DNA from: Crocinitomicaceae bacterium
Lineage (GTDB): Bacteria > Bacteroidota > Bacteroidia > Flavobacteriales_D > Crocinitomicaceae
NCBI GenBank assembly: GCA_044353545.1
Contig: JBILBT010000001.1
Coordinates: 1-30,841 of the forward strand
Length of the DNA stretch: 30,841 nt
Direction: 5' to 3'
This document shows, piece by piece, positions 2,331 through 2,811 of the stretch; positions within the stretch are counted from its first letter, which is position 1, and every line of letters begins with the position of its first letter. A program made the translations under genes and the position numbers. Below the pieces are notes generated by a model, which searched no databases, was not told the DNA's origin, and saw only the letters and a program-made list of their open reading frames with translations.

Positions 2331-2811
2331 GGACAAAAGACACTTCTTCGCTCTTCGAGCTTCGAAGGACAAAGGACCGCTGCGCTAAAGGACAATGGAC
2401 AAAAGACTTAAAAAAGTTACGAGTTATTAGTTACGAGTTACTGCTGTCAATAAACCGCTGCGCTGAAAGACTTGATCATACACTGAATTCCGACAGGATC
2501 AAATAGCGTAGCGTCAAATTTTGTTAGGACCAAATTGCGTAGCGTCAAATTCCGTTAGGACCAAATTGCCGCAGGCATCAAATTCTTATAAGGACAAAAG
2601 ACTTAAAAAAGTTACGAGTTATTAGTTACGAGTTACTGCTGTCAATAAACCGCTGCGCTGAAAGACTTGATCATACACTGAATTCCGACAGGATCAAATA
2701 GCGTAGCGTCAAATTCCGTTAGGACCAAATTGCCGAAGGCATCAAATTCTTATAAGGACAAAAGACACTTCTTCGCTCTTTGAGCGTCGAAGGACAAAGG
2801 ACCGCTGCGCT
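2331..2811 (+). repeat. 56-bp direct repeat, module A (copies at 2331-2386 and 2756-2811)
   Basis: ggacaaaagacacttcttcgctctt(c/t)gagc(t/g)tcgaaggacaaaggaccgctgcgct; 54/56 identical by manual alignment. Confidence 0.95.
2397..2755 (+). repeat. Tandem duplication of a 164-bp unit (2397-2591, which carries a 31-bp extra sub-unit, and 2592-2755)
   Basis: 2397-2520 equals 2592-2715 (124/124). 2552-2591 matches 2716-2755 at 39/40. The extra 31 nt at 2521-2551 occur only in copy 1. Confidence 0.95.

What the first reader, a model, noticed from the sequence alone, without database searches (positions are those of the whole stretch)
2489..2755. Periodic array of G-N(1-2)-A-loop mini-hairpins with co-varying stems, strung on CAAATT linkers
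Seen: CAAAT(T) recurs at 2500, 2515, 2531, 2546, 2562 and 2579 (15-17-nt period) and again at 2695, 2710, 2726 and 2743. Almost every interval folds into a tiny hairpin: TCC-GACA-GGA, GC-GTA-GC, TCC-GTTA-GGA, GCC-GCA-GGC, GCC-GAA-GGC. The second locus adds TTCCT-GAA-AGGAA and CAC-GAA-GTG. The opposite strand carries GC-GCA-GC four times (2379, 2457, 2652, 2804) and CTC-GAA-GAG (2351). Stem sequences change while pairing and the G..A loop are kept. Known: d(GC-GNA-GC)-type hairpins are extraordinarily stable in single-stranded DNA, and HUH enzymes (IS200/IS605 TnpA, REP-associated tyrosine transposases) recognise ssDNA hairpins. GTA/GCA/GAA triloops and GTTA are not RNA GNRA tetraloops. Inference: selection acts on ssDNA structure, so this could be the substrate or product of an uncharacterised ssDNA-hairpin-based repeat or mobility system. 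I know no named family for it.
Basis: partly seen in the sequence, partly recalled or inferred. Interest (0 to 1): 0.78.

Follow-up and report, generated by a model that had tools for sequence, protein, structure and literature searches.

The report
Mini-hairpin DNA repeat arrays, CAAATT-linked
The stretch is a real string of tiny hairpin-forming DNA units joined by the constant linker (AT)CAAATT. It is one copy of a dispersed, apparently undescribed intergenic repeat family found in only eight related freshwater Flavobacteriales species, and it looks like self-propagating structural DNA, not a regulator of its neighbouring genes.

Summary
Observation confirmed. CAAAT-N9-12-CAAAT-N9-12-CAAAT occurs 7 times in the window against 0.01 expected. 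Genome-wide there are about 75 units in about 45 mostly intergenic loci.

Units were picked by linker and length only. Among them 94% of stem cells pair (shuffles 70%, 0 of 500 as high) and the covariation score is 0.61 against 0.17. The closing pair is C:G in 42 of 49 units and the loop is G-N-A in 29 of 49. That is the sequence rule of hyperstable DNA mini-hairpins.

The family is abundant (44-81 copies) in 8 of 54 species of one genus and at background (0-6) in the other 46. It matches no Rfam family and fails the REP/BIME criteria.

Interpretation partly supported. A DNA-level structural repeat fits best, but the HUH link does not hold. The single IS200-like Y1 gene is not specific to the clade and is flanked by other repeats. 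Array orientation follows neither transcription nor GC skew.

Arrays grow by duplication of one- or two-unit blocks. They differ strongly between species at some loci and are well conserved at one. Junctions always fall on AATT.

This scan has already reported the same kind of array, with other linkers, in other freshwater Flavobacteriales genomes.

The parts
2255..2916 (.). The whole convergent intergenic spacer, a mosaic made only of short repeat words. It runs from the stop of the + ORF (2252-2254) to the stop of the - ORF (2917-2919).
   Evidence: ORF list. Repeat families D1-D8 and I1-I23. Tandem repeats. As RNA the whole spacer folds with z = -5.9 because the heptamer arms pair. No intrinsic terminator was found.
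2261..2306 (+). Left cap: heptamer array (AATTACG / AGTGACG).
   Evidence: TRF period 7, 5.7 copies. It forms an inverted repeat with 2854-2914, 83-89% complementary.
2852..2914 (+). Right cap: heptamer array (GTAATTC), 9 copies. It is the reverse complement of the left cap and ends 2 nt before the stop codon of the minus-strand gene.
2397..2749 (+). A 195-nt tandem duplication (1.8 copies, 96% matches) that holds both hairpin arrays.
   Evidence: TRF and direct repeat D2.
2484..2592 (+). Array copy 1. It starts at GAATT and holds six CAAAT(T/A) linkers. The units in order are TCC-GACA-GGA, GC-GTA-GC, a degenerate TTGTTAGGA, GC-GTA-GC, TCC-GTTA-GGA and TGCC-GCA-GGCA, followed by CTTATAAG. The period is 31 nt, that is two units.
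2679..2755 (+). Array copy 2. The units are TCC-GACA-GGA, GC-GTA-GC, TCC-GTTA-GGA and TGCC-GAA-GGCA on four linkers. It lacks the 31-nt two-unit block present in copy 1.
   Evidence: The same three-unit version is present in the orthologous spacer of species G044.
2331..2393 (-). GGACAAAAGAC / CCGCTGCGCT / CTTCGCTCTTCGAGCTTCGAAG module. On the minus strand it carries GCTC-GAA-GAGC (2350-2360) and GC-GCA-GC (2379-2385). A second copy lies at 2756-2818. GC-GCA-GC occurs again at 2457-2463, 2652-2658 and 2804-2810.
   Evidence: Direct repeat D4, 94%. The sequence itself. The words are dispersed in 20-49 contigs of the genome.
24469..24731 (-). Second mosaic spacer, in the opposite orientation. 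It lies between the stop of the upstream gene and the start of the M61 peptidase gene. Read on the minus strand it contains GGACAAAAGAC three times, TTAAGAT octamers, a GGCT..AGCC hairpin, then the hairpin array, then TTCATTTTTAATCC twice.
   Evidence: Pfam match of the flanking gene. Orthologous spacers measure 116-378 nt in four sister species.
24519..24575 (-). Hairpin array of locus 2: (T)GCC-GCA-GG(T), TTCCT-GAA-AGGAA and CAC-GAA-GTG on CAAATT linkers.
   Evidence: The same three-unit block recurs twice on contig C22 and at other loci in sister genomes.

Best explanation
The stretch belongs to a lineage-specific family of non-coding DNA repeats.

Anatomy. Each 15-17-nt unit reads AATT | 1-2 freely varying base pairs plus a conserved C:G closing pair | a G-N-A loop (sometimes G-N-N-A) | the complementary arm | AT-C-AAATT. 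The last T of AATT pairs with the A that follows the hairpin. Units are strung head to tail and form one word class in a larger intergenic mosaic. The other words are AATTACG heptamers, TTAAGAT octamers, GGACAAAAGAC modules and larger hairpins. Junctions between words fall on AATT.

Proposed mechanism:
- The units act as DNA.
- The constant linkers give the register for replication slippage or unequal recombination, so arrays gain and lose blocks of one or two units.
- Shared words let blocks be copied between spacers by recombination or template switching.
- Units persist and multiply only while the single strand can snap into a stable mini-hairpin. Pairing could be kept by selection on the repeat's own propagation, or by hairpin-templated correction of mismatches.
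- The arrays are not tailored regulators of the neighbouring genes.

Shown here: the anatomy, the covariation, the loop and closing-pair rule, block duplication, dispersal, the restriction to one clade, and turnover between species.

Inferred: that the hairpin forms in single-stranded DNA, that slippage and recombination are the engine, and that there is no host function.
For: - Covariation with all four Watson-Crick pair types at the two outer stem positions. The closing pair is C:G in 42 of 49 units, the loop is GNA in 29 of 49, and the last loop base is A in 40 of 49.
- The flipped loop form (TNC) is seen in only 5 of 49 units.
- Tetraloops are mostly GTTA/GTCA, not GNRA. This matches the GCGNAGC / GCGNNAGC DNA mini-hairpins, whose RNA versions are much less stable (PMC13037366).
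- G.T and A.C mismatches are equally frequent on the linker strand (5 against 4). That gives no sign of G.U tolerance on one strand.
- Orientation is independent of the flanking genes (9 sense, 6 antisense; 12 convergent and 5 divergent spacers).
- Block duplication is visible. There is a 31-nt two-unit indel between the two copies of a 195-nt duplication. Identical cores occur in 7.7% of adjacent units and 20% of units two apart, against 2.6% of random pairs. In species G060 a two-unit deletion is bounded by the direct repeat GCTGCG.
- Arrays in G018 and G009 on contigs that share the start of the array but show unlike sequence on either side in the stretches printed, so the locus may not be the same, hold ACC/GGT, GCC/GGC and GCT/AGC together with the intermediates ACC/GGC and GCT/GGT.
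- Orthologous spacers keep their heptamer caps but change their contents: 330-660 nt at locus 1 and 116-378 nt at locus 2.
- The three-unit block of locus 2 appears at another, non-orthologous spacer in species G049.
- Modules recombine in many combinations without fixed element ends.
- In G018, GCGAAGC-ATCAAATT units sit in phase inside (AATTACG)n. All 5' flanks of family hairpins end in AATT.
- The copy-number distribution is bimodal: 44-81 copies in 8 of 54 species, 0-6 in the rest, and 0-1 for the reversed control.
Against: - No experiment shows that the hairpins form, or on which nucleic acid.
- Nearest-neighbour folding gives no signal for the arrays (z between -0.75 and +2.2 for DNA and RNA). 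The review states that such models do not capture mini-hairpin stability.
- One array (contig C329 locus) is about as conserved as its flanking genes in five species. Two orthologous sets keep a unit plus CAAATT 10-60 nt upstream of a start codon, in sense orientation. Both could mean a host function.
- Slippage alone does not explain how the same linker reached about 45 unlinked spacers.
- The genome is a metagenome-assembled draft of 383 contigs, and sister assemblies break at these spacers. Copy numbers and contexts are therefore incomplete.
Confidence: 0.5

Rival explanations
1. Enzyme-mobilised single-stranded DNA units. A structure-specific nuclease/ligase recognises the mini-hairpin by shape, cuts in the ATCA|AATT linker and pastes units 3' of AATT. 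Every inserted unit then creates a new target, and heterogeneous tandem arrays result. The candidate enzyme would be an HUH Y1 protein, such as the orphan IS200-like gene of this clade.
For: - The linker is constant while the stems vary. The junction is always AATT, and units sit in phase inside heptamer arrays.
- Neighbouring units are heterogeneous, and the family is dispersed to about 45 loci.
- A single-copy Y1 gene is present in 7 of 8 array-bearing genomes. Its DHIH, WQ and YIYFQKKHH motifs fit subclass 1.2 of PMC6006769, which has no known substrate.
Against: - The Y1 gene occurs in 36 of 54 genomes regardless of arrays.
- Its flanks carry heptamers and GC-rich hairpins, not CAAATT units, in all seven genomes.
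- It was not found in G009, the genome with the most arrays. That genome is 91% complete.
- There is no orientation bias against GC skew (15 against 17; low power), and single spacers hold both orientations.
- The empty site in G007 shows no clean boundaries or target duplication.
- An AATT junction is equally expected from recombination at microhomology.
Confidence: 0.2
2. RNA-level element. The arrays are transcribed as parts of 5' or 3' untranslated regions. There they act as strings of small hairpins that bind an RNA-binding protein or slow RNases, as REP elements do in E. coli 3' UTRs. Candidate partners include the PF05635 four-helix-bundle proteins.
For: - Arrays lie directly after stop codons or 10-60 nt before start codons. 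In two ortholog sets they keep a sense orientation upstream of the start codon in four or five species.
- One array is conserved like its flanks.
- A metatranscriptome run holds a 459-nt contig that covers 2573-2741 with 14 differences. This is weak, because DNA carry-over or a related locus cannot be excluded.
- PF05635 genes lie in mosaic spacers far more often than control genes: 23 of 38 flanks against 9%. One PF05635 cassette is bracketed by CAAATT arrays.
Against: - Orientation relative to transcription is mixed (9 sense, 6 antisense).
- Loops follow the DNA rule, not the RNA GNRA or UNCG rules.
- G.U-type mismatches show no excess over A.C.
- RNA folding z-scores are near zero.
- No Rfam family matches. 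The only hit is CsrC at 24.5 bits against a gathering score of 61, on a neighbouring module, and no CsrA gene was found.
- PF05635 is present in 50 of 54 genomes, so it is not specific to the array clade.
Confidence: 0.15
3. Double-stranded protein-binding arrays. The AATT-containing linkers, spaced 15-17 bp apart, would be sites for a nucleoid-associated or other DNA-binding protein, as BIMEs bind IHF and gyrase. On this reading the palindromes are incidental.
For: The linker is constant and regularly spaced. E. coli BIMEs are known protein-binding sites (abstract of PMC2817692).
Against: It does not explain the compensatory stem changes, the conserved C:G closing pair or the strand-asymmetric G..A loop. 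A protein that reads double-stranded DNA would not need intra-strand complementarity of variable sequence.
Confidence: 0.05

Closest known systems
REP / BIME / REPIN elements with RAYT transposases (Enterobacteria, Pseudomonas; PMC3733652, PMC2817692, PMC3116915)
   Same: Short palindromic units that are high-copy and almost only intergenic, often between convergent genes. They are assembled into mosaics with other short motifs, vary between related species, and show complementary changes in their stems.
   Different: - No GTAG or CGTC tag.
- Stems of 3-4 bp instead of 5-13 bp.
- Head-to-tail tandem arrays on a constant 8-nt linker, instead of head-to-head or tail-to-tail dimers.
- Many different stems side by side in one array.
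- The only Y1 gene is IS200-like, is not flanked by these units and is not specific to the clade.
Hyperstable DNA mini-hairpins d(GCGNAGC) / d(GCGNNAGC) (Hirao and colleagues; review PMC13037366)
   Same: The same sequence rule applies: a C:G closing pair with a G..A loop of 3 or 4 nt. GCGAAGC, GCGTAGC and GCGCAGC occur literally.
   Different: Those motifs are known as single sites at phage and plasmid priming sites and promoters, and as synthetic tools. They are not known as dispersed genomic arrays with covarying stems. Stability of the units found here has not been measured.
Long simple-sequence (heptamer) repeats of Cyanobacteria, Beggiatoaceae and some Bacteroidetes (PMC4679880 and the work of Mrazek cited there)
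   Same: The arrays sit in the same spacers as heptamer tandem arrays placed against stop and start codons, and they share the AATT junction with them. Both show a patchy, lineage-specific distribution and unexplained dispersal.
   Different: Heptamer arrays are homogeneous and carry no hairpin. Here the units are 15-17 nt long with heterogeneous, internally complementary cores.
Linker-plus-mini-hairpin arrays reported earlier in this scan (ATGA/TCAT, GTCATC and CAAGAT linkers in other freshwater Flavobacteriales; Gut-1-type arrays in gut Clostridia)
   Same: The same architecture (constant short linker, variable-stem mini-hairpin), the same habitat and order for the Flavobacteriales cases, and the same turnover between relatives. 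Those are unchecked scan notes.
   Different: The linker here, (AT)CAAATT, is different and the host clade is another one. No Gut-1 match was found. No in-frame copies inside genes were seen here, though I did not search for them systematically.
BOX elements of Streptococcus pneumoniae (from my own knowledge, not checked here)
   Same: A modular intergenic repeat with a tandemly repeated middle module of variable copy number and foldback potential.
   Different: The sequence is unrelated, the modules are about 45-60 nt long, and there are no mini-hairpin units with covarying stems.

Membership tests
REP / BIME (RAYT-associated) | A conserved GTAG (or CGTC) tetranucleotide at the foot of the stem (PMC3733652) | tested here: not met
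   The 5' flank is always ..AATT and the 3' flank is AT-CAAATT. No GTAG or CGTC tag is present.
REP / BIME (RAYT-associated) | A stem of 5-13 bp in a 20-40-nt palindrome | tested here: not met
   The stem is 3 bp plus a T:A pair taken from the linker, and the hairpin is 7-11 nt long.
REP / BIME (RAYT-associated) | Units arranged as inverted (head-to-head or tail-to-tail) dimers, or alternating in orientation | tested here: not met
   Units are head to tail in one orientation within an array. Blocks in opposite orientation occur in a few spacers only.
REP / BIME (RAYT-associated) | A cognate single-copy RAYT gene flanked by the repeat | tested here: not met
   The only Y1 gene (G000 contig C181, 9642-9980) scores 76.6 bits on the IS200 model and 31.9 bits (cut-off 80) on the RAYT model. 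In seven genomes its flanks hold heptamers and GC-rich hairpins, not CAAATT units.
REP / BIME (RAYT-associated) | High copy number, dispersed, extragenic | tested here: met
   About 75 units in about 45 loci, nearly all between ORFs, and 44-81 pattern matches per genome in eight species.
IS200/IS605-type single-strand transposon ends | Strong orientation bias with respect to the direction of replication | tested here: inconclusive
   15 loci have the same sign as coding-corrected GC skew and 17 the opposite. The contigs are short, so the test has low power. The two window loci, 22 kb apart, have opposite orientations.
Rfam RNA families (Gut-1 RF01706, CsrB/CsrC and all others) | A covariance-model match at the gathering score | tested here: not met
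   Nothing relevant at E up to 10 on 1800-3400. On six array-rich loci the only hit is CsrC at 24.5 bits against a gathering score of 61, on a neighbouring module. No CsrA gene was found in the genome, which is 94% complete.
DNA mini-hairpin motif (GCGNAGC / GCGNNAGC) | A C:G closing pair with a G..A loop of 3-4 nt | tested here: met
   The closing pair is C:G in 42 of 49 units and the loop is GNA in 29 of 49. The 4-nt loops are mostly GTTA/GTCA.
DNA mini-hairpin motif (GCGNAGC / GCGNNAGC) | Exceptional melting temperature and nuclease resistance as DNA, and much lower stability as RNA | not testable with these tools
   Nearest-neighbour folding shows nothing. According to PMC13037366 such models cannot capture this stability.
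Hairpin arrays linked to PF05635 (Avd-like four-helix-bundle) genes (a lead from earlier scan notes) | The array sits directly next to a PF05635 gene | tested here: inconclusive
   Only one ortholog group (G007 contig C130, G060 contig C126) is bracketed by CAAATT arrays. PF05635 genes as a whole lie in mosaic spacers in 23 of 38 flanks, against 9% of controls. The family is present in 50 of 54 genomes, so it is not specific to the array clade.

The most novel reading that the evidence does not exclude
Each 15-17-nt unit is itself a mobile piece of DNA. A structure-specific single-strand enzyme would cut in the ATCA|AATT linker and paste the mini-hairpin 3' of any AATT. The candidate is the orphan Y1 HUH subclass shared by Bacteroidetes and Cyanobacteria, or some unknown partner. 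That would make these units the smallest mobile units known. It would also explain why the short-repeat mosaics of these two phyla join at fixed tetranucleotides.
Probability: 0.12. Interest if true: 0.9.

Novelty: new variant of a known kind. Interest (0 to 1): 0.6.

Why it matters
If the reading holds, bacteria carry natural genomic arrays built from the hyperstable DNA mini-hairpin motif. Until now that motif is known from isolated phage and plasmid sites and from synthetic use. The hairpin would be kept by compensatory evolution, with no gene or known RNA involved.

That gives a clean natural system for three questions:
- How structure-forming DNA propagates itself.
- How intergenic mosaics are assembled at fixed short junctions (AATT here).
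- What the orphan IS200-like Y1 and PF05635 proteins of Bacteroidota do.

There is also a practical point. These arrays break short-read assemblies of freshwater Flavobacteriales and inflate the apparent differences between strains in intergenic regions.

Tried and rejected
- Rfam at a permissive threshold on the spacer and on six array-rich loci gave no family. The one sub-threshold CsrC hit lies on a neighbouring module, and no CsrA gene was found.
- Nearest-neighbour folding of the arrays as DNA and as RNA, on both strands, gave z-scores from -0.75 to +2.2. This carries no information for hairpins this small.
- Public runs: the stretch is held by lake and freshwater metagenomes. The only RNA run holds small, diverged contigs that cannot show transcription, strand or ends. 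I draw no conclusion from them.
- RAYT hypothesis: the Y1 gene's distribution, synteny, flanks and model scores all fail to link it to the arrays.
- GC-skew orientation test: no bias, but low power on short contigs.
- Search for a discrete element with fixed ends: BLAST of two array blocks against the genome shows only modules of 20-40 nt in many combinations.
- Empty-site comparison: G007 lacks the whole C329-locus array. The flanks are too diverged to show exact boundaries or a target duplication.
- In-phase insertion into heptamer arrays is striking. It follows automatically once the junctions are at AATT, so it does not separate insertion from recombination.
- Viral contigs hold no copy, and 241 million JGI metagenome records hold only 10 contigs with the pattern.
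- The pattern scan of all species genomes was swamped by ATCAAATT/ATCACATT octamer arrays, which are common in Bacteroidota. In the part of that output that was printed (about 3,000 of its 23,000 characters were cut), true hairpin arrays came only from ten loci, whose record titles, where shown, name Flavobacteriales- or Cryomorphaceae-type MAGs or Bacteroidota (one is labelled Chitinophaga pinensis; two titles were not printed).
- Genome-wide, C(GNA)G 3-bp hairpins are not enriched over other loop classes. The signal lies in the linker context, not in the bulk count.
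Full report
WHAT IS THERE

The finding lies in the 662-nt spacer between two convergent genes. The + ORF ends at 2254 and the - ORF ends at 2917. The flanking proteins are ordinary: a sortilin/BNR-like protein and a secreted protein with a T9SS sorting tail.

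The spacer consists entirely of short repeat words:
- (AATTACG)n at 2261-2306, and its reverse complement (GTAATTC)n at 2852-2914. These cap both ends.
- GGACAAAAGAC / CCGCTGCGCT / CTTCGCTCTTCGAGCTTCGAAG modules at 2331-2393 and 2756-2818.
- Internal AGTTACG heptamers.
- A 195-nt tandem duplication (2397-2749, 96% matches) that contains the two hairpin arrays.

The two arrays are copies of one another and differ by a 31-nt (two-unit) indel and a loop change (GCA against GAA). One unit (TTGTTAGGA) has lost its pairing.

IS IT MORE THAN CHANCE?

Yes.
- The three-linker pattern occurs 7 times in the window against 0.01 in shuffles.
- In the whole genome (3.07 Mb, 383 contigs, 41% G+C) there are 312 CAAAT-N8-14-CAAAT intervals against 60 for the reversed motif. 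Stems of at least 4 bp occur 48 times against about 6 expected from shuffled or random intervals.
- I took 49 distinct units from the window and sister genomes using only the two linkers and the inner length of 11 nt. On these, 94.4% of stem cells pair against 69.5% in shuffles (0 of 500 as high). The covariation score is 0.605 against 0.165, and at most 0.085 when partners are slid by one to three columns.
- The outer two variable pairs use all four Watson-Crick types (G:C 15, C:G 14, U:A 7, A:U 2 at the first; C:G 29, G:C 14, A:U 4 at the second).
- The closing pair is C:G in 42 of 49 units. The loop is GNA in 29 of 49 and ends in A in 40 of 49. The flipped form TNC is seen 5 times.
- The 4-nt loops are mostly GTTA and GTCA.

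WHERE ELSE?

In this genome about 75 units lie in about 45 loci, nearly all between ORFs. There are 12 convergent, 5 divergent and about 15 co-directional spacers. The array strand is sense to the flanking genes in 9 co-directional cases and antisense in 6.

Within the genus the distribution is bimodal. Eight of 54 species carry 44-81 copies of CAAATT-N2-4-GNA-N2-4-AY-CAAAT, the other 46 carry 0-6, and the reversed control gives 0-1. Six of the seven sister species have the window's first protein at 89-95% identity to ours (G049 gave no match), against at most 61% for the rest of the genus.

Outside the genus I found the arrays only in a few MAGs labelled Flavobacteriales, Cryomorphaceae or similar (one record is labelled Chitinophaga pinensis, and part of that output was cut), in 10 JGI metagenome contigs, and in no viral contig. 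The runs that hold the stretch are lake and freshwater metagenomes.

HOW THE ARRAYS CHANGE

At locus 1, the five orthologous spacers keep inverted heptamer caps against both stop codons but differ inside (about 330-660 nt).
- G044 shares the series GCGTAGC / CCGTTAGG / GCCGCAGGC with our genome.
- G007 has no CAAATT units at all.

At locus 2 the spacers measure 116-378 nt. All five species keep a hairpin unit plus CAAATT 10-60 nt before the start codon of the M61 peptidase gene.

In G018, units GCGAAGC-ATCAAATT sit in phase inside (AATTACG)n. Every family hairpin is preceded by AATT. AATT is therefore the general junction of the mosaic.

A third locus (contig C329) is conserved about as well as its flanks in five species.
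- G060 has one two-unit deletion there, bounded by GCTGCG.
- G007 lacks the whole block, but no clean boundaries are visible.

A fourth locus (contig C57) has different units in each of four species. In G049 it carries the same three-unit block as window locus 2.

Identical cores are enriched among adjacent units (7.7%) and among units two apart (20%), against 2.6% for random pairs.

Arrays in G018 and G009 whose first units match, though the sequence printed on either side does not, hold GCC/GGC, ACC/GGT and GCT/AGC together with the single-mismatch intermediates ACC/GGC and GCT/GGT. These are the expected steps of compensatory change.

Modules of 20-40 nt recur in many combinations without fixed element ends.

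WHAT IT IS NOT

- No Rfam family matches. The one sub-threshold CsrC hit lies on a neighbouring module, and no CsrA gene was found.
- It fails four of five REP/BIME criteria. It has no GTAG or CGTC tag, its stems are too short, its units are head to tail, and no cognate RAYT flanks it.
- The only Y1 HUH gene is a 144-aa ORF within a 154-aa open frame. It scores as IS200-like (76.6 bits) and not as RAYT (31.9 bits, cut-off 80).
- Its motifs DHIH / WQ / YIYFQKKHH fit subclass 1.2 of Quentin and colleagues. That subclass is restricted to Cyanobacteria and Bacteroidetes and has no associated hairpins.
- The gene is present in 36 of 54 genomes of the genus. It is syntenic in seven array-bearing genomes and was not found in G009. 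It is flanked by heptamers and GC-rich hairpins of another family, never by CAAATT units.
- Array orientation shows no relation to coding-corrected GC skew (15 against 17; low power). Both orientations occur within single spacers and in the two window loci 22 kb apart.

DNA OR RNA?

The evidence is indirect but points to DNA.
- The conserved features are those of the d(C-GNA-G) / GNNA mini-hairpin. Its RNA versions are far less stable, and tandem copies bind SSB poorly (PMC13037366).
- The tetraloops are not GNRA.
- Orientation relative to transcription is mixed.
- G.T and A.C mismatches are equally frequent on the linker strand.
- Thermodynamic folding is silent either way.
- The RNA run is uninformative.

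A LEAD FROM EARLIER SCAN NOTES

Notes on other genomes linked similar arrays to PF05635 (Avd-like four-helix-bundle) genes. Here PF05635 is multi-copy in 50 of 54 genomes, so it is not specific to the clade.

In the eight species its genes sit in mosaic spacers far more often than control ORFs: 23 of 38 flanks against 9%. After collapsing orthologs that is roughly four of six groups.

Only one group (G007 contig C130, G060 contig C126) is bracketed by CAAATT arrays, present as direct repeats of about 250 nt. Our genome has other repeats at that site. The link is suggestive for the mosaic as a whole and weak for this word class.

MOST LIKELY MECHANISM

I favour a self-propagating structural DNA repeat (confidence about 0.5).
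- The constant linkers give the slippage and recombination register.
- Blocks of one or two units duplicate and delete.
- Blocks move between spacers through the shared words, with AATT as the joint.
- Units stay in play only while they can form the stable single-strand hairpin. That could be through selection on propagation or through hairpin-templated correction. The latter rests on my own knowledge of quasipalindrome template-switch mutagenesis and was not tested.

Rivals are enzyme-mediated pasting of units at AATT (0.2), an RNA-level role in untranslated regions (0.15), and double-stranded protein-binding arrays (0.05).

NOVELTY

I found no description of such arrays in the papers searched. 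This scan has already reported the same architecture with other linkers in other freshwater Flavobacteriales, and in Clostridia. This is therefore another family of a recurring, apparently unpublished type. I file it as a new variant of the known kind "dispersed intergenic palindromic / mosaic repeats".

LIMITS

- The genome is a fragmented MAG.
- My ORF calls are crude, using only a length threshold.
Several break at exactly these spacers, so copy numbers are lower bounds.
- Sister species are not independent samples.

Noticed in passing
window 2261-2306 and 2852-2914: Inverted heptamer arrays cap the convergent spacer directly against both stop codons. As RNA the whole 662-nt spacer folds with z = -5.9, and no intrinsic terminator was found. 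The caps are kept in all five orthologous spacers while the inside changes.
   Followed up: partly
G000 contig C181, 9642-9980 (minus strand); orthologs in L165-L170: A single-copy, syntenic IS200-like Y1 HUH gene (a 144-aa ORF within a 154-aa open frame; motifs DHIH, WQ, YIYFQKKHH; subclass 1.2-like). Its stop codon abuts an AATTACG array. Its flanks carry a separate GC-rich hairpin repeat family (TCCCCCTC-N4-GAGGGGGA, GTCCCGA-AGGG-TCGGGAC), which also occurs at C149 and C215.
   Followed up: partly
L186 (G007 contig C130) 1-1000; L233 (G060 contig C126) 600-1750: A PF05635 / TIGR02436 four-helix-bundle gene sits between two direct repeats of about 250 nt. Each repeat is made of reverse-oriented and then forward-oriented CAAATT hairpin units. 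Our genome has other repeats and no such gene at the orthologous site.
   Followed up: partly
G000 contig C71, 1900-2700: Another PF05635 gene is flanked on both sides by direct copies of a different word set. That set includes a 23-nt tandem array (GGAGCATGGACCGCTTCGCTGAT)n, whose reverse strand carries GCGAAGC mini-hairpins on another linker.
   Followed up: no
G000 contigs C43, C73, C85, C146, C149, C364: A MITE-like element of about 250 nt with terminal inverted repeats TTGTTGTCCGA..TCGGACAACAA and internal GACCCC-N4-GGGGTC hairpins. It is usually inserted next to heptamer arrays. There are 34 terminal-repeat matches in 28 contigs.
   Followed up: no
loci L011-L128 (many Bacteroidota genomes): Tandem octamer arrays of ATCAAATT / ATCACATT and the like are widespread in Chitinophagaceae, Saprospiraceae, Flavobacterium and others. 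They often end a few bases before a start codon.
   Followed up: no
L213 1217-1471 (G000 contig C33, 3116-3370), minus strand: A sub-threshold CsrC covariance-model match (24.5 bits, E 7e-4) on a TTAAGAT / GGACAA module of a mosaic spacer. No CsrA gene was found in the genome.
   Followed up: partly
sister genomes G009, G018, G024, G060: Contigs end at the orthologous mosaic spacers: G024 contig C83, G009 contigs C67 and C1, G018 contigs C125 and C32, and G060 contigs C28 and C5. Short-read assemblies therefore under-represent these repeats.
   Followed up: no
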